64,000 nucleotides of DNA from a virus. Lineage: Duplodnaviria > Caudoviricetes. Location: positions 128,001 to 192,000 of the IMG/VR virus record IMGVR_UViG_3300009431_000002; one strand, 5' to 3'. Positions within the stretch are counted from its first letter, which is position 1; each line of letters begins with the position of its first letter. Made by a program: the position numbers and the translations under genes. The notes under the pieces were generated by a model that saw only the letters and a program-made list of their open reading frames with translations, was not told the origin of the DNA and made no database searches. Positions 1,610-20,879 of the stretch are shown here, one piece after another.

Positions 1610-2229
1610 GAGTCGCCGGCCTGGACGAGGCGGGTGCCGGAGCCCTGGCCGGTCCCGTCATCGCCGCGGCCGCGCTCTACGACGACATGACGTGCCCGTT
1701 CGAGCCGCTCATCGACGGCGAGGGGTACAAGGACAGCAAGCAGCTCACGAAGCTGGCGCGCGAGAAGCTGGTCCCCCAGCTCATCGCTGGCGCCGTGTCC
1801 ATCGGGCTCGGATGGGCGGACCCCGAAGAGGTCGACCGCATGGGCATGCGGGAGGCTCACCTGCTCTGCCTGCGGCGCGCCGTGGGGGATCTGCAGACGC
1901 CGCCGGAGATGCTCTACGTCGACGGCCGCGCCTACGAGCTCAGTGGCCTGCCCTTCCCGCAGCTCGCCGAGAACCGAGCCGATACCATCTACTGGCAGGT
2001 GGCGGCCGCATCGGTCATCGCCAAGACCTACCGCGACGGCATCATGTACGAGCAGCACGCGAAGTACGATGGCTACGGGTTCAACACCAACGTGGGGTAC
2101 GGGTCCAACCAGCACCTCGAGGCTCTGGGCAGGCTCGGCCCGACGCCCATCCACCGCAAGCTGTTCATCCGCAAGCCCATGGCCCGGGCTGGGCAGCAGG
2201 TCCCCCTGTCCCGGAGGTACACCCTGTGA
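1606..2229 (+). CDS. rnhB: Ribonuclease HII
   Basis: MRVAGLDEAGAGALAGPV, DSKQL, YVDG, VAAASVIAKTYRD, GYG...H.EAL..LGPTPIHR are all RNase HII signature motifs. Confidence 0.92.
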   Translation: MRVAGLDEAGAGALAGPVIAAAALYDDMTCPFEPLIDGEGYKDSKQLTKLAREKLVPQLIAGAVSIGLGWADPEEVDRMGMREAHLLCLRRAVGDLQTPPEMLYVDGRAYELSGLPFPQLAENRADTIYWQVAAASVIAKTYRDGIMYEQHAKYDGYGFNTNVGYGSNQHLEALGRLGPTPIHRKLFIRKPMARAGQQVPLSRRYTL

Positions 2230-3059
2230 GCGGCGAGGTCACCACGGCCCGCATCGCCCGGCTACTGCACGCCCGCCACGAGCCGCCGGAATGGGCGTGC
2301 TTCCAGGAGTTCACGACGATGACGGGCGGCGGGTTCCGCCGGTCTGGCGGCTACAGGACCGTGCGGTTCGTCGACTTCCTCGCCGTGAACCTCTGGCCCT
2401 CGAAGGGGATCTCCAAGTCGCCCAGGGTCGTCGCCTACGAGATCAAGGTCAGCCGCTCCGACTTCTTCCGGGAGATCCAGGACCCCAGCAAGCGGGCCCA
2501 GGCCATGGCGATGTCCAGCGAGTTCGTGTTCGCCGTCCCCAGTGGGCTGGTGAAGAAGGACGAGGTCCCCGAGGGCTGCGGGCTGCTCTACGCCACGACG
2601 GCCGGCCTGCGGCAGATGAAGGCGCCGCGGCAGAAGAAGCCGGACGACTGGGACTGGAACCTCATCTGCTCGCTGGCACGCCGCGTCGCCGACGAGCGTC
2701 CGAAGGACTCGCTGGCCGCCTGGAGGGTGGCGGGCCGCGAGCTGACCTACGAGGAGCTCGTGCAGCTGGCCATCAGCTCGTACAAGCGTGACGTCGGCGA
2801 GACCGCGGAGGCCATCGCCAACGGCGCCACCAAGAAGCTGATCGCCTCCAAGCCCTACCAGGACCTGCTCGACATCGCCGCGGCCGTGAAGGAGAAGTGT
2901 GGCTGGCGCGTGCAGACGGGCGACCAGTTCCGCCGGTGGTTCGATGAGCAGCTGCAGGGCGCGGTAGACCGCGACACGATCAGTGGAATCCGGCAAGCGC
3001 GGAGCACGCTGGATCGAGTGCTGGAGCGAGTCGCGCCAGCTCCGAAGCAAACCCGCTGA
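2226..3059 (+). CDS. MmcB-like PD-(D/E)XK nuclease-family protein
   Basis: R.VDFLAVNLWPS...VVAYEIKVSRSDFFREIQDPSKR...SEFVFAVP.GLVKKDEVPEGCGL. The GTG overlaps the rnhB stop (GTGA). Confidence 0.65.
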   Translation: MSGEVTTARIARLLHARHEPPEWACFQEFTTMTGGGFRRSGGYRTVRFVDFLAVNLWPSKGISKSPRVVAYEIKVSRSDFFREIQDPSKRAQAMAMSSEFVFAVPSGLVKKDEVPEGCGLLYATTAGLRQMKAPRQKKPDDWDWNLICSLARRVADERPKDSLAAWRVAGRELTYEELVQLAISSYKRDVGETAEAIANGATKKLIASKPYQDLLDIAAAVKEKCGWRVQTGDQFRRWFDEQLQGAVDRDTISGIRQARSTLDRVLERVAPAPKQTR

Positions 3060-4233
3060 CGGCCCCCTCCTTCTCCAGCAGGGTCTTGTAGCCGCGGGGC
3101 TGCATGCCTGCGTCGAGCGCCTTCTTGAACCTGCGGACGTGCTTGCAGTCGCTGCCCTTGTGCGACCGCTTGTAGTACCAGTCCGGGCACGTGCATCCGA
3201 CTCGACCCGAGGACATGAGCTTCAGGGTGTACCGCTTGGGTCCGACATCGGACTTGACCCGGCGGACGTGCTCGGCGCCCTGCATGCCCTCCATGGCCCG
3301 CACGTGCCTTTTTAGCTTCGAGTCGGCCTCGGGGTGCAGGAGGATGGCCTGGCGGAACCCCGGGGACCGCAGGGCGCGGCCCTTGTACTTCTTCCACGCG
3401 TCCTGCGTGGGCGCGGGATCCGTGACGAGCCTGTCGGCCTGCTGCAAGTGCTTGGGCTTCGGGATGGTCGGCGGCAGCGGGCCCTGCCGGGCCTCCTTGA
3501 CCGCCGACGTCTTCTCCGCCACGAACCGCAGATTCTGCGACCCGGGCGTCGGCACCCTGTGGTACCCGACCTTCCCGGTGGCCGGACTGTAGATCGCGTG
3601 CCACTCCCCTGCGCCGCCCGGCATCCTCGCCCCGTGGATGTCCACGCTGCTGGGCCACACCTCCGGGGACACGAGCCCGCGCACCACATCCCGCGCGCGG
3701 CGAGCGTGCCGAAGGTTGCCTGGGGTGGGCCGGTCGAGATCGACGCCAGCAGCGGCCATCAGCTCCTCGAACTCTGGGCTGAACGGCTCTGGTCGGAGTT
3801 CCTGCGCAAGGTCACGCTCGATCATGGCGGGGTCTGGCGGGTCGCCGGGGTGGCTGTGGGCCGTCGGGCGCGAGGGTCCCGTGCGGTTCGCGGAGACGGG
3901 CCGCAACGCCACCGTCCCACCATCGCCGTGGACTAGATGGCGCGAACGCCCGCGCACGCCCACCTCGCCTACCTCATCCGCGCTCGCAGCCGCCAGATCC
4001 TTCATCCTGGCGGTCGGCGCGGCAGTCGATGGGTGGTCGATCTTCCCCTTCCTGAGCATCTTGGCCAGCCAGCGCCAGTCGCCCTCGCCCACCGAAACAC
4101 CGGCCGCACGTGCCGTCCGCGCGAGGTCCTCCGTGCGCGCTGACGTCTTGGCCAACTCGACGAAGTTGGCGCCCAAAATCGACCCCAGGCTATGGGCGAT
4201 TTCTGGGCGGCTGGTCAGATCTGATTTCATCAA
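2980..4233 (-). CDS. SWIM zinc-finger protein, probably virion-associated
   Basis: VGCTCPDWYYKRSHKGSDCKH fits the SWIM CxC-x(n)-CxH pattern. Start overlaps the SNF2 stop. Carries KxA-type motifs (AKTSA, EKTSA, GFASELARLA). Confidence 0.7.
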   Translation of the reverse strand: MMKSDLTSRPEIAHSLGSILGANFVELAKTSARTEDLARTARAAGVSVGEGDWRWLAKMLRKGKIDHPSTAAPTARMKDLAAASADEVGEVGVRGRSRHLVHGDGGTVALRPVSANRTGPSRPTAHSHPGDPPDPAMIERDLAQELRPEPFSPEFEELMAAAGVDLDRPTPGNLRHARRARDVVRGLVSPEVWPSSVDIHGARMPGGAGEWHAIYSPATGKVGYHRVPTPGSQNLRFVAEKTSAVKEARQGPLPPTIPKPKHLQQADRLVTDPAPTQDAWKKYKGRALRSPGFRQAILLHPEADSKLKRHVRAMEGMQGAEHVRRVKSDVGPKRYTLKLMSSGRVGCTCPDWYYKRSHKGSDCKHVRRFKKALDAGMQPRGYKTLLEKEGAVSGFASELARLAPALDPACSALAGFH

Positions 4234-7073
4234 TGGCTCGGGATGTAGTGCTCGGTCTTCTGGACCTTCTCCTCGGTCACGGACAGCCCACGCAGCATGG
4301 CACGGAGCTGCTCGTCACCGAGTCGCGCCCGCTTGCGCGCGTGGGTCTTGGGCGTCGTGAAGTACGGGTCGCGCAGGCCCAGCAGCATCTCTGGCGTGAG
4401 CATCAACGCAGCGAGCCCTGTGCCGGCGGCGACGGCGCCCCCGATGCCCACCGCGGCCTGGGTGACCGAGCGGGACCGGGGCAGTAGGTCTTCGGCGAGC
4501 CCGATGCCCAGTGGAGCGAAGGCAGGGGCGCCAGACAGGCCGACCAGCGGCGTGGCGATGCCCAGGACCTTGGCCGTGTTCACCAGCCTGTCCTTGTCGG
4601 TCTTCATCCCCTTGGGCGCCGGCGTTCCGCGCGCGGCCGCGCGGTAGTACTGGCGCAGGGTGTCGATGAAGTACTGCTCGCGCGCCTGCTTCTTCTCGTT
4701 GCCCACGGCCTCGACGTACGGGTCGGCCATGTCCTCGATCTTGTCGCCGAACTCGTTCCAGTACGCCTCCATGATGGGCTGGTCGGACTTGACGAGGCTG
4801 CGGCCCTCCTGGAAGGGGATGCGCTTGGCTGCGGCCCGCAGCTTCTTCTTGTCCACCTTGGCCGCGGAGATCTTCTCCATCTCGTCGTCGAAGGCGGCCT
4901 GCATCACGGCGAGCTTGAGCAGGGAGTCCTCGGCGAGCTCACCGACGGCGTAGTCGAACTCGGACTCCACGCTGGCGGCCTTGGACTTGCCCTTCAACTG
5001 GTGGCGGAACGACTCGTTGAGCACGTCCTTGCGCTTGGCGACGTCGTACATCCACTCGTCGGGCGAGGTCTCCCGCTTGAACGGGTTGTACATGATCGGC
5101 GCGCCGGCGGTGGTCAGGCGGTCGAGGAAGCCTCCAGGGGAGATGAGCTTCAGCGTGTCCTTGGCGGTCTGCGTGGCCGAGCGGGGCACGACGCTGACGT
5201 ACCGGCGGATGACGACCTTGCGCTGCTCCGGCTCCCGGTGCGCGAGCCCGCCGGCGCGGACCGCGCGGGCCTCGGCCTGCTGGATCTTCTCGGGGTTGAA
5301 GTGGCCGTCGAGCGCCGCGAACATCGTGGCGTTCTTGAGGTCCAGCCCCTCGCCGCCGGCGGCAGAGATGACGAGGACCTTGTTCTTGCCCTTGTTGAAG
5401 TCGCGCACAGACCGTTGGCGCTTCTCCTCGGTCACCCCGGGCTGGCCCTTGCCCACGAAGGTGCCGAAGGGGATGCCGCGGTCCTTCAGCCCCGCGGACA
5501 CGACGTCGACCCCACCCTTGATCAAGTTCGAGTGGATGACGACCTGGCCGTCTTCGGTCTCGGCGAGGTGGTCCTCGACGTCGTCCAGCATCACCTTGAC
5601 CTTCGGCGTCTTCTGCGCCGACTCGGTGATGTCCATGTCGTTGTCGATGGTGTGGATCGAGTTCGAGACCTGCCGGGCCTGGATGATCTTGGCGAAGATG
5701 TTGTTGAGGTCCCGGCTCTTGAGCTGGCTGGCACCGAAGCGCAGCTTGATGGCCGTGACGGGGTCGAGCTTGTCCACCACGTAGCGGTAGAGCTCCTCCT
5801 GTCGCGGGCTCATCATCACCTTGACCTCTTCGACGACCTTGTCGGGCATGCGCTCGTCGTCCATGTCCTTGGTCTCGAAGTGGTCGACGAACGGGTTGAG
5901 CAGGGCGCGCACCATCCGCGGCCGCGCGATGGTCTTCTGCCCCTTCTTGTCCTCGCGGACGAAGCGTCGCTCGAAGTGGTTCTTGGTGCCCAGGCGGTGC
6001 TTGCCGCCGGTCATGGCGTCGACCAGCGGGACCATGTCGCCCGGGGTGTTGTTCATGATCGACCCAGTCAGGCCGATGAAGTTCTTGTGGTGCGGGCGCG
6101 CGTCCTTCAACGTCTTGTAGGTCGCGCCCTCCTCGTTGCGGATCCGGTGGAGCTCGTCGTAGATGACGGTGTCCGCGCCCGAGGCCTTGATGTACTTCTC
6201 CGGGTCCTTGCGGAACATCTCGTAGCTGACGACGTGGTAGCGGGCACCGTCGTCGGGGTCCTCGGCGGCCCTGGCAACGCCCTTGGCTACCTCCTGGCTG
6301 TTGCCGAAGATCGCACCGCGGGCGTTGGTGAACTTGCGGACCCCGTTGTCCAGGAAGTTGGCGCGCAGCGACGCCGGCGTCACGACCAGCGCGCGGCTGG
6401 CGTCCCCGGAGTCTCGCATCTTCTCGAACGAGGCGATGGCGGTGATGGTCTTGCCGGACCCCGTGCCGTGGGACAGGAGCAGGGAGCCACCGCGGTTCAT
6501 CACCTTGTCGACCGCAGCCCTCTGGTGCTCGAACAGCTCGACGTTGCGCTTCAGTCCCTTGGGCTCGAACCTCTGTTCCTTCTTGCGCTTCGCCACCTTC
6601 ACCGAGCTAGCCTTGGCCATGCCCGGCGCCGCCTCTCCCATCGTCTCCGCGGACCGCCCGACGACCCGGCCCAGGTGCTCCGGCAGCTTCCGCAGCTTGC
6701 CCTTCAGCAGCTGCTCCGCCTCCACCGAGCTGGGTGAGGGTGCGAGGCCGAGGAGCTTCGACGCGAGCATGTCTCCCTTGAGGGCACCGAGTCCCGCGAC
6801 CTCCGCTGTGCCAGGCACGGGCAGGGCTGCTGCTGCACCCATCGCCGCGGGGATGGTGGCGATGTTGTCGGTAGCGGCGCCGACCAGGACTCGCTGGGTC
6901 TCAGGGTTGAGCAGGTGGAATCGAGAGGTCCCCGGAACCTCCGTCAGCAGCACGCGCTGGAGAGCGTCGGACGCGCCGCCCGCAGCCTGCTCCACCGCCT
7001 GCCCGACGCGCGGCAGCCCGACGCGGCGGAGGAGTTCGCCTGTGATCTGCCCACGTGCCGCCGCCTTCTCCAT
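4230..7073 (-). CDS. SNF2/SWI2-family helicase-like ATPase with N- and C-terminal extensions
   Basis: LFEHQ (Q motif), LLSHGTGSGKT (Walker A), ALVVTPASL, VIYDELHRIRN (Walker B), LTGSIMNN, SAAGGEGLDLKNA, IQQAEARAVRAG (motif VI). Confidence 0.88.
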   Translation of the reverse strand: MEKAAARGQITGELLRRVGLPRVGQAVEQAAGGASDALQRVLLTEVPGTSRFHLLNPETQRVLVGAATDNIATIPAAMGAAAALPVPGTAEVAGLGALKGDMLASKLLGLAPSPSSVEAEQLLKGKLRKLPEHLGRVVGRSAETMGEAAPGMAKASSVKVAKRKKEQRFEPKGLKRNVELFEHQRAAVDKVMNRGGSLLLSHGTGSGKTITAIASFEKMRDSGDASRALVVTPASLRANFLDNGVRKFTNARGAIFGNSQEVAKGVARAAEDPDDGARYHVVSYEMFRKDPEKYIKASGADTVIYDELHRIRNEEGATYKTLKDARPHHKNFIGLTGSIMNNTPGDMVPLVDAMTGGKHRLGTKNHFERRFVREDKKGQKTIARPRMVRALLNPFVDHFETKDMDDERMPDKVVEEVKVMMSPRQEELYRYVVDKLDPVTAIKLRFGASQLKSRDLNNIFAKIIQARQVSNSIHTIDNDMDITESAQKTPKVKVMLDDVEDHLAETEDGQVVIHSNLIKGGVDVVSAGLKDRGIPFGTFVGKGQPGVTEEKRQRSVRDFNKGKNKVLVISAAGGEGLDLKNATMFAALDGHFNPEKIQQAEARAVRAGGLAHREPEQRKVVIRRYVSVVPRSATQTAKDTLKLISPGGFLDRLTTAGAPIMYNPFKRETSPDEWMYDVAKRKDVLNESFRHQLKGKSKAASVESEFDYAVGELAEDSLLKLAVMQAAFDDEMEKISAAKVDKKKLRAAAKRIPFQEGRSLVKSDQPIMEAYWNEFGDKIEDMADPYVEAVGNEKKQAREQYFIDTLRQYYRAAARGTPAPKGMKTDKDRLVNTAKVLGIATPLVGLSGAPAFAPLGIGLAEDLLPRSRSVTQAAVGIGGAVAAGTGLAALMLTPEMLLGLRDPYFTTPKTHARKRARLGDEQLRAMLRGLSVTEEKVQKTEHYIPSH

Positions 7074-7074
7074 G

Positions 7075-8052
7075 TCAGTGCCCTTCCTGCCGGCTCACCG
7101 ATGGGTACAGGCCGCCGGTCTTGATGAGTCCCTCGGAGATCCGCTTGCCCCGCACGTCGCGGCGACGCAGCAGTCGTCGGAAGTCGTCGAACGACATCGT
7201 CGTCATCGACCCGAAGAACTTGGGGCTGTTGTAGTGCTTGAGGTACGCCCGCTTCGCCTCCTTGGCATTGCGGAACCCCAGCATGCACTTGTCCTCGTCG
7301 TACTCCTTGAAGCCGGGCTTCTTCATCTGGTGGACGATGTACACCACGTCGGAGTGGAGGTCTGGCCCGACGTACACGTCGACGGGGTCGCCGTCGGGGG
7401 CCATGGTCCGTCGGACCTCACCGTAGTGGTGCTGCATCTTCGTGCTGCCGGACTCGCCGGTGTTCTCGTCCTTCCAGTGCCGGCTGGAGCCGCGGCGGTT
7501 CTCGATGTAGATCTTCAACCCACGGAAGTCGATGGTCCCCTGGTAGGGCCACTCCTTCCTGTTCCGCTTCGGCGGCGGGCCCACCTTGGGCTTGACCTCC
7601 TTGGGGTCAGCGCCGTTGGCCTTGGCCACCTTCTCCAGCGCCGCGATGATGGCGAGCCCACTGGCCTTGTAGAAGTTGCCCTCGTTCACACCGACCGTCT
7701 CACTGTTCCGCGCGTCCTCCAAGCCCTTCAGCCCGTCCTTCGTCAGCTCGGGGCCGCCCTTGACCTTCAGGAACTCGTGCCCGTCGCCGTCGACACTGGT
7801 CTTGTAGGCGCGGCTGGCGCCGATCTGGCTGTTGTGCTCGACCGCTCGGAGCAGCCGGACCATCTTGGCGACGGTCTCCGGGTGGCCCTCGAGCTCCAGC
7901 TTCACCGAGGCGCGCGGCTGCTCACCGACCTTCTCCGGCAGCTTCTCGTCCGGTGTGTGCCTCTCCCACTTCTTGACGGTGCCCTTGGGCACACGACCAT
8001 CCGCCTCCATGGCGTGGAAGAGTCGTCGCTGTGCCTCGCTCTGGAATGGCAT
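7075..8052 (-). CDS. Protein with C-terminal inorganic pyrophosphatase-like (InPase) domain
   Basis: GLKIYIENRRGSSR...MQHHYGEVRRTMAPDGDPVDVYVGP...IVHQ...YDEDKCMLGF..AKEAKRAYLKHY. The DxDxxD motif matches family I PPase-like domains described in phage polyvalent proteins. Confidence 0.72.
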   Translation of the reverse strand: MPFQSEAQRRLFHAMEADGRVPKGTVKKWERHTPDEKLPEKVGEQPRASVKLELEGHPETVAKMVRLLRAVEHNSQIGASRAYKTSVDGDGHEFLKVKGGPELTKDGLKGLEDARNSETVGVNEGNFYKASGLAIIAALEKVAKANGADPKEVKPKVGPPPKRNRKEWPYQGTIDFRGLKIYIENRRGSSRHWKDENTGESGSTKMQHHYGEVRRTMAPDGDPVDVYVGPDLHSDVVYIVHQMKKPGFKEYDEDKCMLGFRNAKEAKRAYLKHYNSPKFFGSMTTMSFDDFRRLLRRRDVRGKRISEGLIKTGGLYPSVSRQEGH

Positions 8053-8055
8053 CGT

Positions 8056-8865
8056 CTACCCCAGGTTCGGGCCGAACACCTTCCGCGGCCAGCTGCCCGT
8101 GCCTGTGGTGGGCAGCGGGGCCTGCGAGAACATGTTGAACGCCTTCATGGCAGCCGGCAGCGCGACCAGTGCGCCGCCGACCCGCCCCCACTTCGGCAGC
8201 CTGCTGGCGAGCTGGGCTGCCTCGTCCGCGGTCATCAGCCCCTTCTCCACCGACTTCTGCAGGGTGCCGGCGAGCATCTTCCCGCCACCGTGGCCGAGCA
8301 TCGACGCACCGCCGACGGTGCCCGCCATCCCAGCCAGCCCCCACGTCGGTCCGGCGGGGACCACCTGCACAGGCTGCTGGTACTGCATCGGGTAGGCCGC
8401 GGTCTTCTCGCCCGTGTAGTTGCGCAGCTTCTCGGACATCTCCGCGACGTGTGCTCGCTCCTCTTCCTCAGACATGCCGTGCGTGATGTAGATGCTGCCG
8501 ATCCCGCCGTCGCCCCGCCGCACAGACAGGATCTTCTTGTAGGGGGAGTAGTGGTCGCGGGTGCCTCCGGCACCGAGGGTCCGCCGCAGCGCGTTGATCA
8601 TCCCCGGCAGCTTCTCCGTATGCACCGGCTTCTTGACGTAGACGCCACCAGGCTCGAACGCGGAGTCTGGAATGGCCTTGCCCGTCCGCTCCTCCTCAGC
8701 CATCACGGCCTCGACAGCATCGAGGTCGTCCCACAATCCCTGACTGTCGGGAACATGCGTATTGAGGAGCTTGTACCCTTCCGGGGTCAGCGACCTCGGG
8801 TCGACGCGCTTCGGGCCGAACGCGGTCTTCACCAATCCGAAGGGCACGATGGGTCGCTCGGTCAT
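8056..8865 (-). CDS. Hypothetical, probable virion-internal protein
   Basis: GC3-rich ORF with VKTAF and EKTAA motifs and Gly/Ala-rich hydrophobic C-terminal segments. Confidence 0.6.
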   Translation of the reverse strand: MTERPIVPFGLVKTAFGPKRVDPRSLTPEGYKLLNTHVPDSQGLWDDLDAVEAVMAEEERTGKAIPDSAFEPGGVYVKKPVHTEKLPGMINALRRTLGAGGTRDHYSPYKKILSVRRGDGGIGSIYITHGMSEEEERAHVAEMSEKLRNYTGEKTAAYPMQYQQPVQVVPAGPTWGLAGMAGTVGGASMLGHGGGKMLAGTLQKSVEKGLMTADEAAQLASRLPKWGRVGGALVALPAAMKAFNMFSQAPLPTTGTGSWPRKVFGPNLG

Positions 8866-9284
8866 GCTGCTGCTCCTCGGAGCCTGTGCGCCAGGCGCTC
8901 ACCGAACTCGGCGGTGAGCATCTCCAGCGCCTGGCCCTTGCGCTTGCCGTAGCCGGCGAGCTTCACGCCCCAGCTGTCGACCTCAGCGGTGTAGGTCCCG
9001 ACCGCCGCCTCGCTGGACCCGAGGATCTCGTCGAAGGTGGTGCCGATGGCCTCGCGCATCGCGGACTCCGGCGGCCACGGGAACGGGTCCACGCGGTAGA
9101 TGTGGTAGAGCAGGTCGTCGCCGGCGAACACCCACTGGATCCGGATGGGGCCGAAGTCCACCATCGGTGTGCGGTCGTGGGTACCCACGGCCTCCATCTT
9201 GAAGGACCGCTGGCCCCCGGCAATCTGGCCGAGCATCTCCTGCGCCCAGTCAGGCGTCCTCGTCAATGTCTTCGGACCCGTCAT
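8862..9284 (-). CDS. Hypothetical protein (start re-called at ATG 9284)
   Basis: RBS GGAGAGG before MTGPKTLT; stop overlaps the next start. Confidence 0.65.
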   Translation of the reverse strand: MTGPKTLTRTPDWAQEMLGQIAGGQRSFKMEAVGTHDRTPMVDFGPIRIQWVFAGDDLLYHIYRVDPFPWPPESAMREAIGTTFDEILGSSEAAVGTYTAEVDSWGVKLAGYGKRKGQALEMLTAEFGERLAHRLRGAAA

Positions 9285-10194
9285 CGTCCTCTCCCAAGGT
9301 GTCAGCGACATCCGCGGTGTCGCTGTACGTTCCTCCCGCCTCCGGGTCGGCCAGCTGATGCAGGGACACCGGCGGCTGTTTGTCATTCTGCACGCGCATC
9401 CGCTCGAAGTCCTTGAGCAGACGGCGCAGTTCATCCTCGCTCGTGGCCACGCGCTTGTCGATGGCCAATGCCGTGTTGGCCAGCCCGGTGAGCATCGTGA
9501 TCTTGTCCCGGCTCAACGACACTGTGTCGTCGACCGTCACGAAGTTGATGTACAGGCGACGCCGCATGTCCTGCAGCATCTCCTGCCCCTCGAGGCCGGC
9601 CCGCAGGCCCATGCGGTGGAGCGTGGCCTCTCGGCCAGACCGCAGCGCGACCTCGTGGTCCTCCTGCACCATCGGCGGCAGGTCCTGGGACAGGATGGTC
9701 TCGGACCACTCCTCCAGGCTCATGGCCCGGACGTTCCAGTAGTAGTGCGCGAACGACTGGACGCCGTCTGTGGTGATCCGTAGACCCTCTGCCCGACCCA
9801 CCTCGCGTGCGATGACGTGGAAGGGCACCTGCCCCAGCAGTCCGACCTCTACTCGCCGGCGGACCCGGAAGTCCAGGAGGATCGTGTTGGCCTCCTCGAC
9901 GGCGCGCGTCGGGTGGTGCAGCGAGAAGATGCGGTGCCGTCGCAGGTACCGTGCGGTCCGGATGTTCCTGCGGTCCCGGGGCAGGAAGGGGTTCGGGATG
10001 TCCTTGAGCAGCTGGGCACGGAGGCGGCTGACGTACTGCTCCTCGGCCTCGGGCAGCCGATACATCTCCAGGTGCGTCTTCACGAACTCGTAGCTGCACT
10101 TCTCCGGATGCCCCTGCGTCAGCAGGAAGAGGATGAACCGTTCGCTCGGATGAGCACGCTGCTCCCGAGCGGGTGGGAGCAGATCCATCGTCAT
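9250..10194 (-). CDS. Hypothetical protein (314 aa)
   Basis: GC3-rich, coupled to the upstream gene (ATGA overlap), acidic C-terminus. Confidence 0.7.
   Translation of the reverse strand: MTMDLLPPAREQRAHPSERFILFLLTQGHPEKCSYEFVKTHLEMYRLPEAEEQYVSRLRAQLLKDIPNPFLPRDRRNIRTARYLRRHRIFSLHHPTRAVEEANTILLDFRVRRRVEVGLLGQVPFHVIAREVGRAEGLRITTDGVQSFAHYYWNVRAMSLEEWSETILSQDLPPMVQEDHEVALRSGREATLHRMGLRAGLEGQEMLQDMRRRLYINFVTVDDTVSLSRDKITMLTGLANTALAIDKRVATSEDELRRLLKDFERMRVQNDKQPPVSLHQLADPEAGGTYSDTADVADTLGEDDDGSEDIDEDA
9517..9529. repeat. Dispersed palindrome, copy 2
   Basis: ACGACACTGTGTCGTCG at 9516-9532, inside a CDS (encodes DDTVS). Confidence 0.9.
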
Positions 10195-12335: not shown

Positions 12336-12339
12336 TGGT

Positions 12340-13431: not shown

Positions 13432-13438
13432 GTCCTAC

Positions 13439-13861
13439 TCAACGACGGAGCAGCGTCGCGCCCCCGAGGCCCAACGTGCCGAGACCAGCCATGCCTCCGG
13501 CGCCGGCCAGCGCACCGCCGCCGACGTCACGGGCGAGGTCGCCGCCCTCCTGGACCTGCTTGCCCCAGCCCTCGAGGCCCTCGCCCCAGCCGCGGCGTGT
13601 CTTGCCGGCGTCCAGGGCCTCCGTGCTCATCTTGCCCTTGGGCTGGGCCTTCACGGCGCGGGCCATGGCGTCGTCGCCCGACTGGGTGAGCTTGCCGCCC
13701 AGCCACTTGGCGCCGCGGCCGATGAGCTTGCCGGCCTGCTCGATGAGCGCGAGCTTCTCGAGGTCGCTCAGGCCACGGGCGTCTGCCACCTTCTCGAGCT
13801 CGTCGAGGAACCCGCCGACGAAGGCGTGCTCGCATGCGGCCGCGTGCTTCTCCATATCCAT
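13439..13861 (-). CDS. Small Gly-rich protein with GFLDELEKVA motif, probable virion-internal
   Basis: RBS GGAGG; MEKHAA...GGFLDELEKVA...LEKLA; Gly-rich hydrophobic C-terminus. Confidence 0.65.
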   Translation of the reverse strand: MDMEKHAAACEHAFVGGFLDELEKVADARGLSDLEKLALIEQAGKLIGRGAKWLGGKLTQSGDDAMARAVKAQPKGKMSTEALDAGKTRRGWGEGLEGWGKQVQEGGDLARDVGGGALAGAGGMAGLGTLGLGGATLLRR

Positions 13862-13870
13862 GCGGTCCTC

Positions 13871-14656
13871 CTATCCAAAGTGGCGCGGCGTTGGCGCGTC
13901 GAGCCACAGATATTTGCTTTCGTGCGCTGACAGCCGAGGCTTGAGCCACCGCATGGCTTCCTGAGGCCCGCGGCTCTGCAACTGCTCCCGGTACGCGTCC
14001 TGTATCTGACTGTACTCTAAATCTCGTCGGTCGACCGACCGCTCCAGCAACGCCCGAAACCGACGTCGCATAGCCTTCGGCATCTTCTGCCCAGGACGGC
14101 CAACGAACCCACCTGCGCGGGCGTCCCCGAACGCCTCGGACGCCTGCCTGGACAGACGCCTGTACTCCGGTTCGCGCAGCCTACGCCACAATCCAGCCGT
14201 CTCCCAGCCACCGCCCGGGCCCTCTAAGGTGTTAATGAGATTGGACTCCTGGACCAGCACATCTGGCTCTGCGTGACCAGAGACCAGTTCCGTGAGCTTC
14301 TCGCCGTAACGGCCAGCTTTCCGCTCCGCAGCCTCGTGTATGGTGGCGATCCCACGAAGGTTGGTTTGTGCCTCCCTGGAGGCGTGTGGGGCAATACCGC
14401 GACCCGCGGATGGCGCCACGTAGACGGCACCTGCAGCCCGAGCCAGGGCCGGGGACTGATCCTTTATGGCCTCCGGCAAACGCTTCGGTATGTGGAACGC
14501 GCCAGCGCGCATCGGTGTGGTGCCGAGCTCCTCCCAGGCTTTCGCTGGTAGCCTACGCAGTGGGGCGATGCGCTCGGTAGCCACGCGAAGATCTGCAGCT
14601 GACACCGCGATCTTCACAAGCTCGTCGCAAAACGCCGCCAGTCGCCTCCGCTCCAT
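13871..14656 (-). CDS. Hypothetical protein with AFCDELVKIA motif and atypical codon usage
   Basis: 261-aa ORF in the operon, containing IHEAAE. Uses A/T-ending codons (TTA, ATT, AAT) that are rare elsewhere in the window. Confidence 0.6.
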   Translation of the reverse strand: MERRRLAAFCDELVKIAVSAADLRVATERIAPLRRLPAKAWEELGTTPMRAGAFHIPKRLPEAIKDQSPALARAAGAVYVAPSAGRGIAPHASREAQTNLRGIATIHEAAERKAGRYGEKLTELVSGHAEPDVLVQESNLINTLEGPGGGWETAGLWRRLREPEYRRLSRQASEAFGDARAGGFVGRPGQKMPKAMRRRFRALLERSVDRRDLEYSQIQDAYREQLQSRGPQEAMRWLKPRLSAHESKYLWLDAPTPRHFG

Positions 14657-14664
14657 GCGATCTC

Positions 14665-17600
14665 CTAGTACCCGACGCGGAACTCCGTGGTGCCGGGTGT
14701 TCCTTTCTCAGGCTGCCCGAACTCGGAGCCATAGGCTAGCGCCGGGATCGGATGCAACCCGTGGATGTTGCTGGACCAGCCCCTCAAGGCACCGTCGACG
14801 ATGGTGTCCTTCAGCTTCTGGTACTGGAGCCGCGCCATCCAGTCCTCCTGCATGTCCAGCGGCGTCTGCGTGACCCCGCGCAGGATGGGCGTGAACTTGA
14901 CGGGCTTCTTGCGCTTCTTGTTGTGGTACCCGACATTCGACGTGGACACCAGGTCTCCTGGGAGGAGGTCGGTGTCGCCGGCGTCATCCACTACGCCGAG
15001 GTCGGTGATGGCGCGGACCGCGGTCTCCACGTTGCGCCGGAGCACTGGGCCCGCGTCCGAGTACGCCTTGTGGACCTCGTCCGCGAGGTAGCCGCGCACC
15101 GTGTTGATGTTGGTCAGCGGCAGCATCTCGTGCGGATTGATGGGCCCGCCGGAGAGCCGGTCCCCCTTGCGGACCTTCACGCCCTTGCGCAGCTTGATCT
15201 TCTCGTTGACCAGGTGCTCGGGGACGTAGTGCCTCTTCCCCTTGACCCAGATGTTGAGGCCGCCGACCTCGGCGTCCTTCTCCACCCGCTCTACGGTGCC
15301 CGTGGTCGTCGCCAGCGTCGCCGAGTCCGCCAGCACCTTGGGCATGCGCAGCAGGTCCTGGACCCTGGTGAACTTGTCGGTGGACCGGCCGCTCTTCGAG
15401 GCAGCGACCCCGCCTTCGTGGAACGCGCGCATCGACAACTGCGTGGCGGGCTCGCCCAGTGCCTGCGACGCGATGACCCCGATGTTGGTCCCCGGGTCGG
15501 GCAGCTGGCCGTCCGGCAGGTTGCCGTAGTCCCGTGCGTACAGTCCCTTCGGGGCCACCGACTTCAGCGGGCTGCGGATCGACACGCGCCGGACGCCGCT
15601 GTTCTTCATCCTCGTCTGGACCCGGTCGGTGACCTCGGTGTTCCTCGGCAGGACGTCGCCGCCCCGGAGCTTCACGGGCCGCGCGAGGTAGCGACCGATG
15701 ACCTCGCGGTCCTCGGGGTCCGCGCTGATGCCGTCGTCGGCGTCGTCCGGCGCGTCCCCATCGACCACGACGAGGTTCATGGCAGAGTTCACGACGTCCT
15801 TGGTCAGCGCGCCGGGCTTGGCGGTCTCCTTCGTCTTCTGGATCATGCCCTTGCGCGCACCGTGCATGGCCGTGAAGTAGCTGGCGGAGTCCAGGCCCTC
15901 GGCGTAGCTCTTGGTGATCGGCACCGGCACGATGCGGTCGGCCGCGTCCTTCACCAACATGGGGGCGATGAGGATCTGCCGGACCTGGTCCCAGTTGCCG
16001 CGAGCACCGGCGTTGACCATCTCCAGGGCGTGGTTGCCCTGCCGCTCCAACTTCGGACGGATGGCCCGGCTCAGGTCCTCGGTGGCCTTGGAGTAGAGGT
16101 CGACGAGGCGCTGGTCCTTCTCCTCCTGGGTCAGCGACTTCATCTTCTGGATGCGCTTGGCCGCCTTGTGGACCCCAGCCAGGGCGCGGTCGCGCACAGC
16201 CTGCTGCGCCTGGAAGTCGTCGAGGGTGAACGACGCGCCAGACTCGTAGGCGTAGTCGTTGCCCATGTCCTTGAGGTCGTTGACGACGTCGCCGAAGTCG
16301 GCCGAGTGCTCCTTGGCCATCCGGGTGAGGAGGTCCTTGGTCGGGCCCTTGGACATCCGGAAGTCCTTGGAGTGGAGCAGCTGCGCGTCCCCTCGCATCC
16401 CCTCCGGCAGCACGCGGTCGAGGAGGATGCGACCGAGGGTCGTCTCCCTGCCCTTCACCGAGACCACGTCGGTCATGCCGAGGCCGAGCTTGCGGGCCTT
16501 GGCCGCCACCTGCGCCGGCGAGTCGAAGCGGTGCGACGTCTTCTTCCCCCACTCTGTCAGCCGGTACAGCCCGAGCTGGGCCTCGTGGCCCGGGGAGTAC
16601 ATCACCCGGCCGGTGGTGGTGTTGAACAGGTTGTTGGACGGGAAGAGCTTGCGCGCCTCCTCCACCGCCTCCTTGGCGAGCGGAACGTAGGCGGACATCT
16701 GGTCGCCGTCGAAGTCGGCGTTGTACCCCGAGGTCACCAGGGGGTGGATGCGGATGGCCTTGCCGCCGACGAGCTTGGGCTTGAACGCCATGACCCCGAA
16801 CTTGTGGAGCACCGGGTCACGCTTCAGCAGCACCGGCCGCTCCTCCATCACGCGCTCAAGCGCGTGCCGGGCGACCTTGGAGTTGGTCCGGACCAGGTGC
16901 TGTGCCTCGGCGGGGACGTAGCCCTGCTCCCGCACCAGCTTTCGCACGACGAAGGGCTTGTACGTCTCCTTCGCCAGCTTGTAGGGGATGCCCACCTCGT
17001 CCAGTCCCATGTCGGGCTCGGGGATGATGGTGGACCGCATCGACAGGTCCTGCCGGCGGGAGACGAGGTTCTTCTGGAAGAACGAGTCCTTGGGCTGGGG
17101 CACGCCCTTCATCGTCTCCATCACGCCGCGGTGCTTGCGGCCGTTGATGGTGGAGCCGGTCATCATCAGGGCGCGGAGCCCGTCGTAGAGCTCGGCGGTC
17201 AGCTTGCTCTTCGTCTTCTCCCCGAGTCCGGGGTCGTAGTCCCGCAGCTGGATGTTGGTGATGCCGAGGCTCTTGTACAGGCCGTTGATGTCCGAGTCGT
17301 TGAGCTTGCCCGACTCCATCACCGAGACCGGCCGCATCACCGGCGGCATGACGGGCACGACCGAGGTGAAGTACGCCTGGTCGGGGGTCAGGTCGTTGGC
17401 GACCAGCGCCTCGAGGAACCGGATCTGCTTGCGCAGCTTCGCCATCGTCGACACGGCCTTGGTGGTCTCGGCCTGGCGACGGAGCGTCTCCAGCTGCTGC
17501 CGTGGGTCGATGGCCGCCAGCCGTGCGCGGATGGCTTCGGGCCCGGTCTTCCCGTCGAGCGTCTTCTCGCCGGCGATGACGGCCTGGTAGTCCTTGTTCT

Positions 17601-20600
17601 TCAGCCCCGTGAAGGTGAGGATGGCCTTCTCGAACACCGGGTTCGGCATGGGCTCGGCCAGCCGGATGTGGGACCAGCGCTTGCCGTCCACACCGCCCGT
17701 GGCGTAGGGGTCGAACAGCCCGCCGCGCTCCGGCTTGAGGTCCTTGCCCCGGAACATCAGGCCCGGGTCCTTCAGTTCGCCGCTGGACATCCGCAGGATC
17801 TGCTCGTCGGTGAGGGGCGCGAGGTTCAGGGTCGAGCCCTGCTTCTTGACGTCGACGCCCAGCACGTTGAGGTAGCCGTTGAACTTGTCGAAGGCGAACG
17901 AGGTGGACGGCGGTGGGAGCTGCTCCCCAGTCTGCAGGGCCATCCACAGCTCGGGGTTCTTCTGGCTCTTGTAGGTGGCCATCTCCCGGATGTTGGCCTT
18001 CGCTCCATGAGCCAACATGGCGTACATGCCCAACGCGTCCATGGCCTGGGCGCCGTGGGCACCACCGCCCTTCGGAACCTCGTTGACGCTGTACGCGTAC
18101 CCGGCCCCGCCCGCGCGGGCGTGGGACTTCTTGTCGATCTGGTGCTTGAGCTTGAGGATGTACTGGTCGCCCGTGAGGATCGGCCCCAGGCTCTGCCCGG
18201 ACTTGGGGTCCACCAGCTCCTCGGTGTCGGACAGGCCCTCCTTCGCCAGCTCCGCCTTCATCTCCTTGGCGTAGTTGCGGTTGGCCCCGCCGAAGTTGTT
18301 GGTGACGTACCGCTTGCCCCGCTTCCGGGCGATCTTCCCGGCCATCGTCTCGAGGACCTGGCCGAGGTTGATGCGGCCGGGGATGCCAGCCGGGTTGAGC
18401 AGGACCTCGACCGGGGCGCCCTCTTCGCCAGAGGCGCGCGGCATCTCGTGGTCAGGCAGCACCGCCGTGACGATGCCCTTGTTGCCGTGGCGTCCGACCA
18501 GCTTGTCCCCGACGCGGGCAGGCTCCTCGGTGGCGACGTGGACGCTGACGTCCTTGCCCCGCTTGACGACGCGGACCACCCGGCCCTTCGTGTCCTTGTC
18601 CCAGACGATGGGCTTGGGGTCCATGTCCCGCACGAGGCTCTTGTGCAGCCGCGCCCGCATGCGACGCTCGCTGGTCTGCTCCGGCTTCTTCAGCGCGGCG
18701 ACGAGGATGTCCCCCTCGTTGACCTCCTGCCCCACCTGGATGACGCCGTCGTCGTCGAGCTTGTCGTAGACCTCGCGCTGCACGCGGTCGGGTGGCGCGT
18801 ACGCGCGGAACTTCTTCTTGTCCAGGACCGTGTTCTTGGTCAGCCGCATGCTCTTGCGGTGCATGTGCTGGGACTTGAGCTTCTCGGCCGCGGACTCGGA
18901 GACGACGATGCCGTCCTCGAAGTTGTACCCACGGTACGGGATGTAGGCCACCCGGAGGTTCTTGCCCAGCGCGAGCTTGCCTTCGCGCGTGAAGTTGGTG
19001 TCGGCCACCGTCTGGCCGCGCTTGACCTTGTCCCCCTTCTTCACGAGGGGCTCGGAGTGCAGGACGCTGGACGCCTCGTTGAGCGGGAAGTGGTCGTAGA
19101 GCTGGACCTCCTCCAGCTTCCCGGCCTTGCTCCGGATCTTGATGGCGCCGGGCCTCACCGACACCACGGTGCCTTCCACCGGGGACTCGTGGGAGTTGAA
19201 CTGGCCCAGCACGTCCTCGAAGGTGGACCTCACCTCGGTCTTGGACTGCACCAGCGGCTCGTCGCGGTCCACCAGGGGCACGGCCTGCTCCTGCTGCCGG
19301 GACGCCGTCATGGCCCTGTTGCCCTGGTTGTTCTGCAGGAAGGGCACGAGGTTGGTGGCCATGCTGAACAGGCCCTTGGCCGACGGGAGGATGTAGTCCA
19401 CCTCGCTGGCCGGCACCTGCATCACCTCGCCGCCCGGGCCGCTGACCGTCACCTCCTTACCGATGGGGACGAGCCGGTTCTTCACCTTCTTGTACTGGTC
19501 TGGGAAGGCGACGGTGGAGCGGTGCGCCTTGTGCGGATCGATCTTCTCCCGGCGGCCCGTCTTCGTGTTGTAGGCCTGGATGTAGAGGGTCTTGCCCTTC
19601 CGCGACACCCCCAGCGGGAGCTGGAGGGTGATGCCGGTGCGGTCACCCTCCGGGGTGTGGATGGGGTCGAGGAAGCCGAGGTGCGTCGGGTCGATGAGCT
19701 GGTCGGCGTCGGTCAGGGTGTGGGTGCTCTTGACCCCGCCCTCGCCCATGATGGTGGTCTTGGACTGGCCGGAGATGAACTCCAGCGGGTTGACCTGGTC
19801 GGGCATCTGCGACAGCTGGGTCTGGGTGAAGAAGGTCTTGATGGGCTTGTCGAACAGCCCGGGGGTCACGACCTCCCTGACGTCGGCCTTGCGGTCGATG
19901 TTGTTCTCCATCTTCCGCTGCAGATCCCAACGGCCGCGGGTCAGCCGCTCGGCCACGAAGTCGTCGACCGACAACGCGTCCTTGTAGAACAGGTGCTCAC
20001 GCGCGTCCGGGGTGTCCTCGCCCCTCGAGATCCGCGCGAGCTTGTGGGCCGAGGCCAGGAGCGACGGGCCGCTCACCTTGTCGTAGGCCTTGCCCAGGGT
20101 GATCTTCGTGCTGTCGGGGCGCAGCACGGTCGTGCCGAACTCATCTCGGAGGTGGCGCTCGGCGTCCTCGATGCTGGGTGCCTGCTTGCCCGTCGACGCC
20201 TTGTAGAAGGCGCGCATGGCGACGTCGTGCTTCTCCTTCTTCCCCTGGTTGAGGATCCCGCGGCCCAGCTCGCGCTCGATGGTGTCGTCGTCGACCCCCA
20301 GCACCTTGAGCATCGGGTAGAGCGGGATGTGGGAGTTGCCGTACCGGACCAGGAACCGCCGGTCCTCCGGGTGGAACCGGAGCCGGAAGTTCTTGCCTTT
20401 CGCCATGTTCCACTGGGACTCCAGCTCACCCTTGGCGCTGACGCGGTGGTACACCCCAGCCTTCAACCGGAACTGGTTGTCGACCTGGTACTCCTTGCCG
20501 TCGACGATGTAGGAGTGCCGCTTGGTCACGCGGGGCAGGTTGCCCACGCGCATGGACTTGCGGCTGATGACCTTGCCCGTCTCCTTGTTGACCAGGGAGA

Positions 20601-20811
20601 CGTCGGCCATAACAGGGTCAGCCCAAGTCCTGCCCTTGAGCTTCGCGTCCTGCTGGGACCGGATGTCGTCGATGCCCTTCTTGTCGTCGACCCAGACCCG
20701 GTGGAGCTCCAGCCGGTTCTCTCGCCCCTCGAAGGGGAACATCGACGAGATGGCGTCGCTGACACGGTCTTTGAGGGCACCGTAGGAACCCTCTGGGTTC
20801 AGTGTCGCCAT
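14665..20811 (-). CDS. rpoBC: DNA-directed RNA polymerase, single-polypeptide beta-beta' fusion (phage-encoded)
   Basis: Beta motifs: QLSQMPDQVNPL, THLGFLDPIHTPEG, NLVPFLQNNQGNRAM, GYNFEDGIVVSES, GDKLVGRHGNKG, LLNPAGIPGRINLGQ, YILKLKH. Beta' motifs: PVMPPVMRP, RRQDLSMRSTI, KRDPVLH, YNADFDGDQM (16702-16722), HGARKG bridge helix, SQALGEPATQLSMRAFH trigger loop. Confidence 0.95.
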   Translation of the reverse strand: MATLNPEGSYGALKDRVSDAISSMFPFEGRENRLELHRVWVDDKKGIDDIRSQQDAKLKGRTWADPVMADVSLVNKETGKVISRKSMRVGNLPRVTKRHSYIVDGKEYQVDNQFRLKAGVYHRVSAKGELESQWNMAKGKNFRLRFHPEDRRFLVRYGNSHIPLYPMLKVLGVDDDTIERELGRGILNQGKKEKHDVAMRAFYKASTGKQAPSIEDAERHLRDEFGTTVLRPDSTKITLGKAYDKVSGPSLLASAHKLARISRGEDTPDAREHLFYKDALSVDDFVAERLTRGRWDLQRKMENNIDRKADVREVVTPGLFDKPIKTFFTQTQLSQMPDQVNPLEFISGQSKTTIMGEGGVKSTHTLTDADQLIDPTHLGFLDPIHTPEGDRTGITLQLPLGVSRKGKTLYIQAYNTKTGRREKIDPHKAHRSTVAFPDQYKKVKNRLVPIGKEVTVSGPGGEVMQVPASEVDYILPSAKGLFSMATNLVPFLQNNQGNRAMTASRQQEQAVPLVDRDEPLVQSKTEVRSTFEDVLGQFNSHESPVEGTVVSVRPGAIKIRSKAGKLEEVQLYDHFPLNEASSVLHSEPLVKKGDKVKRGQTVADTNFTREGKLALGKNLRVAYIPYRGYNFEDGIVVSESAAEKLKSQHMHRKSMRLTKNTVLDKKKFRAYAPPDRVQREVYDKLDDDGVIQVGQEVNEGDILVAALKKPEQTSERRMRARLHKSLVRDMDPKPIVWDKDTKGRVVRVVKRGKDVSVHVATEEPARVGDKLVGRHGNKGIVTAVLPDHEMPRASGEEGAPVEVLLNPAGIPGRINLGQVLETMAGKIARKRGKRYVTNNFGGANRNYAKEMKAELAKEGLSDTEELVDPKSGQSLGPILTGDQYILKLKHQIDKKSHARAGGAGYAYSVNEVPKGGGAHGAQAMDALGMYAMLAHGAKANIREMATYKSQKNPELWMALQTGEQLPPPSTSFAFDKFNGYLNVLGVDVKKQGSTLNLAPLTDEQILRMSSGELKDPGLMFRGKDLKPERGGLFDPYATGGVDGKRWSHIRLAEPMPNPVFEKAILTFTGLKNKDYQAVIAGEKTLDGKTGPEAIRARLAAIDPRQQLETLRRQAETTKAVSTMAKLRKQIRFLEALVANDLTPDQAYFTSVVPVMPPVMRPVSVMESGKLNDSDINGLYKSLGITNIQLRDYDPGLGEKTKSKLTAELYDGLRALMMTGSTINGRKHRGVMETMKGVPQPKDSFFQKNLVSRRQDLSMRSTIIPEPDMGLDEVGIPYKLAKETYKPFVVRKLVREQGYVPAEAQHLVRTNSKVARHALERVMEERPVLLKRDPVLHKFGVMAFKPKLVGGKAIRIHPLVTSGYNADFDGDQMSAYVPLAKEAVEEARKLFPSNNLFNTTTGRVMYSPGHEAQLGLYRLTEWGKKTSHRFDSPAQVAAKARKLGLGMTDVVSVKGRETTLGRILLDRVLPEGMRGDAQLLHSKDFRMSKGPTKDLLTRMAKEHSADFGDVVNDLKDMGNDYAYESGASFTLDDFQAQQAVRDRALAGVHKAAKRIQKMKSLTQEEKDQRLVDLYSKATEDLSRAIRPKLERQGNHALEMVNAGARGNWDQVRQILIAPMLVKDAADRIVPVPITKSYAEGLDSASYFTAMHGARKGMIQKTKETAKPGALTKDVVNSAMNLVVVDGDAPDDADDGISADPEDREVIGRYLARPVKLRGGDVLPRNTEVTDRVQTRMKNSGVRRVSIRSPLKSVAPKGLYARDYGNLPDGQLPDPGTNIGVIASQALGEPATQLSMRAFHEGGVAASKSGRSTDKFTRVQDLLRMPKVLADSATLATTTGTVERVEKDAEVGGLNIWVKGKRHYVPEHLVNEKIKLRKGVKVRKGDRLSGGPINPHEMLPLTNINTVRGYLADEVHKAYSDAGPVLRRNVETAVRAITDLGVVDDAGDTDLLPGDLVSTSNVGYHNKKRKKPVKFTPILRGVTQTPLDMQEDWMARLQYQKLKDTIVDGALRGWSSNIHGLHPIPALAYGSEFGQPEKGTPGTTEFRVGY

Positions 20812-20863
20812 GGAACGTCCAGTTGTGCCATCAGGCTACAGTGCAAGGGATGCTGTGGCAACG

Positions 20864-20879
20864 GGTACAAGTAGAGTAA
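20864..20879 (+). promoter_or_regulatory. Candidate promoter motif copy 2 (GGTACAAG-TAGA-GTAA)
   Basis: In the divergent gap between the RNAP gene and a plus-strand block, before RBS GAGGAGG. Confidence 0.45.

What the first reader, a model, noticed from the sequence alone, without database searches (positions are those of the whole stretch)
2980..20811. Possible virion-delivered transcription kit: RNAP, SNF2 ATPase, SWIM protein and pyrophosphatase in one late operon
Seen: one tightly packed minus-strand run from the RNAP to the SWIM gene, with SNF2 and SWIM translationally coupled and the PPase-like gene directly upstream. SNF2 and SWIM carry the KxA motif. Known: bacterial SNF2 proteins such as RapA act on RNAP; SWIM domains are often fused or adjacent to SNF2 ATPases; PPi is the product inhibitor of RNA synthesis. 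Inference: these proteins are co-ejected to start host-independent early transcription.
Basis: inference. Interest (0 to 1): 0.68.

Follow-up and report, generated by a model that had tools for sequence, protein, structure and literature searches.

The report
Phage virion polymerase operon, swappable cargo
This gene run of a 202-kb uncultured phage encodes an RNA polymerase that is very probably packed into the virus particle to start early transcription from the phage's own promoters, but the ATPase, pyrophosphatase and zinc-finger genes at its far end are interchangeable capsid cargo and are not a conserved four-part transcription kit.

Summary
In detail: eleven minus-strand ORFs (gaps -4 to +13 nt) run from a fused beta-beta' RNAP to an intact InPase, a SNF2 ATPase and a SWIM module bounded by K-x-A sites. 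The four-gene kit is not conserved. The three closest sister lineages (RNAP 65-70% identical) have InPase and SWIM here but no SNF2; 17 other records have none of the three; 6 of 7 other complete RNAP genomes lack the SNF2; 0 of 18 complete phages with close InPase homologues encode an RNAP. This is a swappable cargo slot. Packaging is supported: in Salmonella phage Arash the RNAP, sigma and SNF2 homologues are major virion proteins. New here: non-structural operons share a phage-specific promoter (GG[TCG]ATAAG; 26 vs 1 by strand; same bias in five other genomes and Arash), while structural operons, this one included, have sigma70-type promoters. That suggests an N4-like scheme: virion RNAP-sigma early, host RNAP late. 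The scan had already reported K-x-A cargo and InPase-in-RNAP on other DNA; SNF2 and InPase helper roles were proposed in Iyer 2017/2021. Nothing is bench-tested.

The parts
20833..20861 (-). sigma70-type promoter heading the run (TTGCCA-17-TAGCCT)
   Evidence: same hexamers before the RNAP of sister L001/L002; sigma70-like site before 12 of 32 related RNAP genes vs 3% of control windows
20843..20872 (+). divergent phage-specific (early-class) promoter, GCAAG...GGTACAAG, back-to-back with the late promoter
   Evidence: divergent copy before 10 of 32 related RNAP genes vs 4% control
14665..20811 (-). single-chain beta-beta' RNA polymerase, 2048 aa, intact NADFDGD; probable virion RNAP
   Evidence: 33%/25% identical to Arash gp206/gp216, both abundant in virions
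13871..14656 (-). 261-aa orphan with F-x-DELxKxA leader, atypical codon use, paralogue elsewhere in the genome; recent cargo insert
   Evidence: absent from sisters
13439..13861 (-). 140-aa protein with three K-x-A sites, conserved only in sisters
12340..13431 (-). baseplate spike / gp5-VgrG-like OB-fold protein (weak hits); conserved next to RNAP
   Evidence: below cut-offs; 26 of 80 loci
10191..12335 (-). conserved 714-aa protein with 7 K-x-A sites, probable head/inner protein, family unknown
9250..10194 (-). conserved 314-aa protein; upstream border of the cargo slot
8862..9236 (-). 124-aa protein conserved in sisters
8056..8865 (-). 269-aa orphan with two K-x-A sites; cargo slot
7075..8052 (-). 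InPase protein: portable 45-aa leader, unknown module, InPase domain (7171-7542) between K-x-A/G sites
4230..7073 (-). 947-aa polyprotein: 150-aa module, SNF2 ATPase core (about 4989-6560), C-terminal module; K-x-A at the joints; probably gained laterally
2980..4230 (-). 416-aa ORF whose aa 244-388 (3067-3501) are a helical bundle plus SWIM zinc finger module between K-x-A sites

Best explanation
The run is one late, structural-strand operon of an mReC-type myovirus. Step 1 (inferred from motifs): host sigma70-RNAP transcribes it from the promoter at 20861-20833, like the scaffold/protease/capsid operons. Step 2 (shown for homologues in Arash, inferred here): the RNAP, the single phage sigma (encoded 9 kb beyond the window) and the SNF2 ATPase are packed into the head. 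Step 3 (inferred): the head protease cuts K-x-A-bounded modules (InPase, SNF2 core, SWIM module) out of their precursors. Step 4 (inferred): after injection RNAP-sigma transcribes the opposite-strand, non-structural operons from the GC(G)AAA-N16-18-GGnAYAAG promoter, an N4-like order. The distal end of the operon (8865-2980) is a variable cargo slot, filled in other lineages with nothing, with SNF2 alone, or with one polyprotein holding InPase, GNAT-like, LigD phosphoesterase and SWIM modules. The accessories are optional helpers, not parts of a fixed machine. My odds for their jobs: SNF2 a dsDNA translocase serving the virion RNAP (recycling or clearing the template) about 45%, acting on incoming DNA for other ends about 40%; InPase a generic PPi/nucleotide hydrolase not dedicated to RNAP about 70%; SWIM module a binder of a host or phage target unrelated to this SNF2 about 70%.
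For: Packing and single head promoter, no terminator excess. Arash virion MS: unique peptides per 100 aa 8.4 and 6.6 (RNAP), 8.1 (SNF2 gp217), 10.3 (sigma), 5.5 (portal), against 0.2-0.7 for primase and replicative helicases; gp217 is 28% identical to the window SNF2, E 3e-42, and is coupled to the beta' gene; sigma orthologue 30%, E 6e-32. Early motif 26 intergenic hits on + vs 1 on -, shuffle mean 1.0; held-out genomes 74 vs 10 on the strand opposite the RNAP; Arash GGTATAA at 18 of 68 non-structural heads, TAAAAT at 8 of 20 structural heads. K-x-A just upstream of the SNF2 core in 36 of 54 homologues (21 at the same offset) vs 5.6% control. Slot census; SNF2 71% identical to genomes whose RNAP is 45% and terminase 51% identical.
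Against: No cleavage, packaging, promoter activity or binding is shown for this phage. The promoter patterns were derived from this genome and the control windows are coding DNA. The Arash list holds 116 of 252 proteins, many with 2-3 peptides, so it includes noise, and the authors allow carry-over. The RNAP itself has no strict K-x-A site, so its loading route is unexplained. Only 12 of 32 related RNAP genes show the sigma70-like site (many are internal to operons). No alpha subunit is encoded.
Confidence: 0.62

Rival explanations
1. One reading: RNAP, SNF2, SWIM and InPase form one co-ejected functional kit; SWIM partners SNF2, SNF2 recycles RNAP, InPase removes PPi.
For: InPase is the commonest Pfam-recognised fusion partner of clade SNF2s (6 of 65); one SNF2-SWIM fusion exists (P0079); InPase is inserted inside the beta fragment in L058 and follows RNAP in L202; all 22 complete SNF2-family genomes encode an RNAP; SNF2 and RNAP are about equal by length-normalised spectra in Arash.
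Against: No other locus has all three in the slot; sisters lack SNF2; 6 of 7 other complete RNAP genomes lack it; Arash has no PF18823; InPase homologues occur in 18 complete phages without RNAP; SWIM's commonest partner is GNAT (7 of 149), SNF2 only 1; fusions carry K-x-A joints and also involve LigD_N, ligase, NUDIX, HAD, KTSC. SNF2-implies-RNAP may only reflect shared ancestry.
Confidence: 0.13
2. The RNAP is a non-virion enzyme: the sigma70-type promoter is an immediate-early host promoter (T7-like order) and the phage RNAP-sigma acts second.
For: The RNAP gene is first behind a host-type promoter; it lacks the K-x-A tag; without alpha it may need host subunits; Arash authors allow carry-over.
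Against: The same promoter class heads the scaffold/protease/capsid operons; RNAP is the top protein of the Arash virion proteome with 128 unique peptides, unlike replication enzymes; sigma sits in a structural operon in both phages.
Confidence: 0.12
3. The slot proteins are injected for counter-defence or DNA handling (clearing proteins from DNA, destroying nucleotide signals, end repair), with no role in transcription.
For: Slot neighbours in sisters are GNAT-like and LigD phosphoesterase modules; Iyer 2017 offers nucleotide-signal hydrolysis as the other reading of InPase; Iyer 2021 offers a recombination role for phage SNF2s; best PDB match is SsoRad54, and RapA scores 38 bits against a cut-off of 576; patchy presence is typical of conflict genes.
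Against: SNF2 repeatedly sits beside RNAP or sigma genes in distant lineages; InPase enters the RNAP chain itself. This reading is compatible with most of the best explanation and differs only in the job of the cargo.
Confidence: 0.35
4. K-x-A is not a protease/packaging mark, and InPase and SWIM are ordinary late cytoplasmic proteins.
For: No cleavage data; short motif; about 2-fold excess also in plus-strand genes; InPase and SWIM have no homologue in a virion proteome that I could check.
Against: 5-fold excess in the head block, including capsid N-terminus, scaffolds and protease; fixed offset at module borders in SNF2 and SWIM families.
Confidence: 0.1

Closest known systems
Salmonella phage Arash (OQ632216; PMC10585845)
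   Same: Homologous portal, protease-region gene, capsid, RNAP, sigma and SNF2; RNAP, sigma and SNF2 reported in virions; same GGTATAAG motif on the non-structural strand.
   Different: Arash RNAP is split in two genes with SNF2 directly behind beta'; no PF18823 InPase and no close SWIM module found; the paper maps no promoters and tests no function.
mReC phages (Weinheimer and Aylward 2020, PMC7481178)
   Same: Tailed phage with beta and beta' homologues detectable by cellular profiles, NADFDGD motif, among head and baseplate genes.
   Different: That paper gives phylogeny only; it does not mention sigma, alpha or helicase. I did not place this RNAP in their tree.
Coliphage N4 transcription scheme (PMC4496689)
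   Same: Virion RNAP for early genes; host sigma70-RNAP for late genes on the opposite strand, which include the virion RNAP gene.
   Different: N4 vRNAP is a T7-like single subunit using hairpin promoters, with a second RNAP for middle genes; here a two-barrel enzyme with a sigma70-family factor and a -35/-10 type motif. Works-like only.
phiKZ-group virion RNAP with packaged helicase (PMC13282480; PMC7824862)
   Same: Multi-subunit virion RNAP, head protease and predicted helicase packaged together; Iyer 2021 proposed a RapA-like role for a SNF2 linked to RNAP genes.
   Different: phiKZ has two RNAPs of 4-5 chains, no sequence-recognisable sigma, and SNF2 strongly correlated with RNAP; here one RNAP chain, one sigma, and a patchy SNF2.
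Polyvalent proteins and their InPase domain (Iyer et al. 2017, PMC5512222)
   Same: InPase PF18823 in multi-module phage proteins predicted to be virion-packaged and to clear PPi for early replication or transcription.
   Different: Modules here are bounded by K-x-A sites and are split over four genes in this genome, one polyprotein in sisters; no MPTase processing domain seen.
RapA/HepA and SWIM-associated bacterial SNF2 (SsoRad54 group)
   Same: SNF2 ATPase core with all motifs; SsoRad54 is the best PDB match (E 2e-36).
   Different: No RapA N- and C-terminal domains (NF003426 38 of 576 bits, one stretch); SWIM is not a constant partner.

Membership tests
mReC RNAP phages | beta and beta' homologues in a tailed-phage genome | tested here: met
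   portal, terminase, capsid homologues
mReC RNAP phages | RNAP falls in the mReC clade of the universal tree | not tested
   only a tree among relatives was built
Virion RNAP (works like N4/phiKZ vRNAP) | present in purified virions | tested here: inconclusive
   shown only for Arash homologues, in a noisy proteome
Virion RNAP (works like N4/phiKZ vRNAP) | phage-specific promoter before early genes, gene itself in a late unit | tested here: met
   motif level only:
Virion RNAP (works like N4/phiKZ vRNAP) | early transcription independent of host RNAP | not testable with these tools
   no alpha gene; needs rifampicin and in vitro tests
RapA/HepA | full-length RapA domain set (NCBIfam NF003426 cut-off 576) | tested here: not met
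   38.4 bits over aa 164-319 only
SNF2/SWI2 ATPases | SNF2 N domain, Helicase_C and intact motifs I, II, III, V, VI | tested here: met
InPase (PF18823) | profile score over cut-off and catalytic acidic motif | tested here: met
   122.9 bits; DGDPVDV at aa 220 and YDEDK at aa 251
InPase (PF18823) | PPi hydrolysis | not testable with these tools
   no assay
SWIM zinc finger | invariant C-x-C-xn-C-x-H with beta-hairpin and helix | tested here: met
   the window protein itself is below the PF04434 threshold
SWIM-SNF2 pair | conserved fusion or adjacency of the two | tested here: not met
   1 fusion in 149 SWIM proteins; SWIM near 2 of 65 SNF2 clusters; none in 3 sister lineages
   the SWIM search used one sequence and can miss distant modules
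Protease-matured head cargo (T4/SPN3US type) | recurring motif at module borders, shared with capsid and scaffold proteins | tested here: met
Protease-matured head cargo (T4/SPN3US type) | cleavage at the motif by the prohead protease | not testable with these tools
   Arash supplement holds no peptides

The most novel reading that the evidence does not exclude
This phage family injects a self-contained, alpha-free two-barrel RNAP with its own sigma and, in many lineages, a roughly equimolar SNF2 motor that works on that RNAP; it reads one family-wide early promoter (GGnATAAG) and then hands late transcription to host sigma70-RNAP, an N4-like inversion carried out with a bacterial-type enzyme, directly testable in cultured phage Arash.
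Probability: 0.3. Interest if true: 0.72.

Novelty: new variant of a known kind. Interest (0 to 1): 0.5.

Why it matters
mReC polymerases are a deep branch of the RNAP tree known only from phylogeny. The evidence here gives them a testable biology: a candidate promoter shared from a 67%-GC phage to Salmonella phage Arash, a sigma partner, a packaged state and a late hand-over to the host enzyme. A one-chain RNAP plus sigma that works without alpha would be the smallest bacterial-type holoenzyme and a useful tool. The cargo slot shows how this family swaps injected enzymes, and warns against reading gene adjacency there as a functional complex.

Tried and rejected
Complex prediction SNF2 core + SWIM module: no verdict, not used either way. 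Fold searches of the SWIM module in PDB (Foldseek, VIA wide): nothing above background. Atlas search of the 714-aa protein: no usable hit; no similarity to Arash gp218/gp219 by BLAST. Generic promoter/terminator scan: at chance level. Arash gp23 'pyrophosphatase': not PF18823; its start looks MazG-like from my own knowledge, so it is not support. A second sigma: the 338-aa gene at the window's left edge does not match Arash gp196 and profile searches found one sigma only. Word-index homologue search of the SWIM module found only itself. Literature searches for this promoter or for SNF2 ejection in such phages found nothing relevant; the library lacks most subscription papers. L288, a further SWIM sister contig, is cut upstream and uninformative. 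Lateral gain of SNF2 rests on relative distances, not on a topology test.
Full report
Setting. The window lies in a complete 201,921-bp, 67%-GC virus record. Structural genes are on the minus strand, replication and most small genes on the plus strand. Portal, capsid and protease-region genes have homologues in Salmonella phage Arash, the best-studied cultured relative.

Observation. Eleven minus-strand ORFs run from 20811 to 2980 with gaps of -4 to +13 nt. The first is a 2048-aa fusion of beta and beta' with an intact NADFDGD. The last three are an InPase (PF18823, 122.9 bits, catalytic motif intact), a SNF2 ATPase with all motifs and an ORF that overlaps the SNF2 stop as TGATG. Its aa 244-388 are a helical bundle plus SWIM finger: four ligands invariant in 149 homologues, model pLDDT 90.7, best viral fold matches SWIM-type proteins. 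The first 200 aa of that ORF have weak codon signal and no convincing homologue. Between RNAP and InPase lie six other genes, among them a baseplate-spike-like gene and conserved 714- and 314-aa genes.

The conserved order is RNAP, spike, 714-aa gene, 314-aa gene, a variable slot, terminase. Among loci picked by RNAP similarity that span the slot, 17 records (about 11 lineages) hold none of SNF2, InPase, SWIM and one holds SNF2 only. The three closest sister lineages (RNAP 65-70% identical) hold InPase and SWIM but no SNF2: in two of them a single polyprotein of 1934 or 1729 aa joins the same leader, InPase, a LigD phosphoesterase and the SWIM module; in the third SWIM is fused to a GNAT-like module. 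Seventeen records picked by SNF2 hold SNF2 alone in the slot. Of seven other complete RNAP genomes one has this SNF2 and none has InPase. The window SNF2 is 71% identical to that of genomes whose RNAP and terminase are only 45% and 51% identical, which points to lateral gain. The window is the only locus seen with all three.

Each accessory. SNF2: a family-wide gene; all 22 complete genomes that carry it encode an RNAP, though kinship alone could give that. It lies near portal, terminase, protease, capsid, RNAP or sigma genes. Its core begins just after a K-x-A-type site in 36 of 54 homologues, 21 at the same offset, against 5.6% of control windows. It is not RapA; SsoRad54 is the nearest solved structure. 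InPase: the commonest recognised fusion partner of these SNF2s (6 of 65), ahead of LigD_N and ligase (3 each), and inserted into the beta fragment in L058. But none of 18 complete phages with close InPase homologues encodes an RNAP, so the domain is general capsid cargo, as Iyer 2017 proposed together with the PPi-clearing idea. SWIM module: 349 representatives, mostly small proteins with an F-x-x-E-L-x-K-x-A leader; partners are GNAT (7 of 149), InPase and LigD_N (2 each) and SNF2 once.

Packaging. In the Arash virion proteome the RNAP chains, sigma gp10 and helicase gp217 give 128, 40, 24 and 38 unique peptides. gp217 is the homologue of the window SNF2 (28%, E 3e-42) and follows beta' with a 1-nt overlap; gp10 is the orthologue of this genome's only sigma (30%, E 6e-32), encoded 9 kb beyond the window. 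Per length these four match or exceed the portal and far exceed primase and replicative helicases. The list is noisy and the authors allow carry-over. K-x-A is 5-fold enriched in the head block, marks capsid, scaffolds and protease, and is absent from this RNAP. Cleavage is inference from T4/SPN3US-type maturation (own knowledge) and from earlier scan notes.

Promoters, the main new result. Operon heads fall in two classes. Plus-strand, non-structural operons share GC(G)AAA-N16-18-GGnAYAAG: 26 intergenic hits on plus, 1 on minus, shuffle mean 1.0. Because the pattern was drawn from this genome I tested others: in five complete relatives it lies 74 times on the strand opposite the RNAP gene and 10 times on the same strand, and in Arash GGTATAA is the top word at non-structural heads (18 of 68, one head counted twice). 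Minus-strand heads carry sigma70-type sites (13 vs 3 by strand), including the scaffold/protease/capsid operon and this run (TTGCCA-17-TAGCCT, kept in a sister and back-to-back with a divergent early site). No site of either class lies inside the run on its strand. With one sigma, packaged in Arash, the simplest reading is virion RNAP-sigma for early genes and host sigma70-RNAP for late genes, as in N4. No alpha gene was found, so full host independence is open.

Verdict. The virion-RNAP half of the idea is supported and sharpened; the four-part kit is not. The block is a late operon that begins with a probable virion RNAP and ends in a swappable cargo slot. SNF2 is the only accessory with evidence of packaging beside the RNAP, and it is dispensable in most lineages; a RapA-like role for a phage SNF2 was already proposed for phiKZ-group phages, which also package a helicase. 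New variant of a known kind; interest 0.5.

Noticed in passing
genome-wide; window 679, 20864, 27213 (+); L001, L115, L201, Arash: Family-wide phage-specific promoter GC(G)AAA-N16-18-GGnAYAAG on the non-structural strand, resembling a sigma28-type -10 element (own knowledge); sigma70-type sites on the structural strand. Deserves its own follow-up.
   Followed up: yes
L058:9153-11522: RNAP split into pieces; the N-terminal beta fragment carries an InPase domain between KTAA and KTAQ.
   Followed up: partly
L103:2784-8588, L104:2684-7873: Sister cargo polyproteins with a LigD 3'-phosphoesterase domain (intein-interrupted in L104), a GNAT-like module and RecX-like helical repeats.
   Followed up: partly
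window 7918-8052 (-): A 45-aa N-terminal leader (MPF-x-S-E-A-Q-R-R...LPEKV) recurs at the start of unrelated cargo genes in L050, L160, L179, L193; candidate portable packaging or folding module.
   Followed up: partly
window 13871-14656 (-) and genome 12801-13406: Orphan with atypical codon use and an F-x-DELxKxA leader has a 34% identical paralogue near the tRNA region; likely recent cargo.
   Followed up: partly
window 2980-3059: The SWIM ORF overlaps the convergent plus-strand gene 2226-3059 by 80 nt; that gene looks like a PD-(D/E)XK/MmcB-type nuclease by eye (no family hit), next to RNase HII at 1606-2229.
   Followed up: no
L287:8001-11534 (P0079): SNF2 with a LAGLIDADG intein in motif I, fused through KVAS to a SWIM module.
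   Followed up: partly
L164, L170, L174, L177, L182: Sigma gene lies within 1-5 kb of the SNF2 gene in several distant lineages.
   Followed up: no
L025:612-8457: A run of genes before the RNAP all start with the leader M-S-I-Y-x-G-I-x-x-G-M-T-K-T-A, a lineage-specific form of the K-x-A leader.
   Followed up: no
L203-L279: InPase domains of RNAP-less phages are often bounded by L-x-K-A/S and M-I-K-S/A, suggesting a similar lysine-directed head protease code outside this family.
   Followed up: no
L103:11026-14037, L104:10306-13296: Terminase of the sisters carries an intein that is absent from this genome.
   Followed up: no
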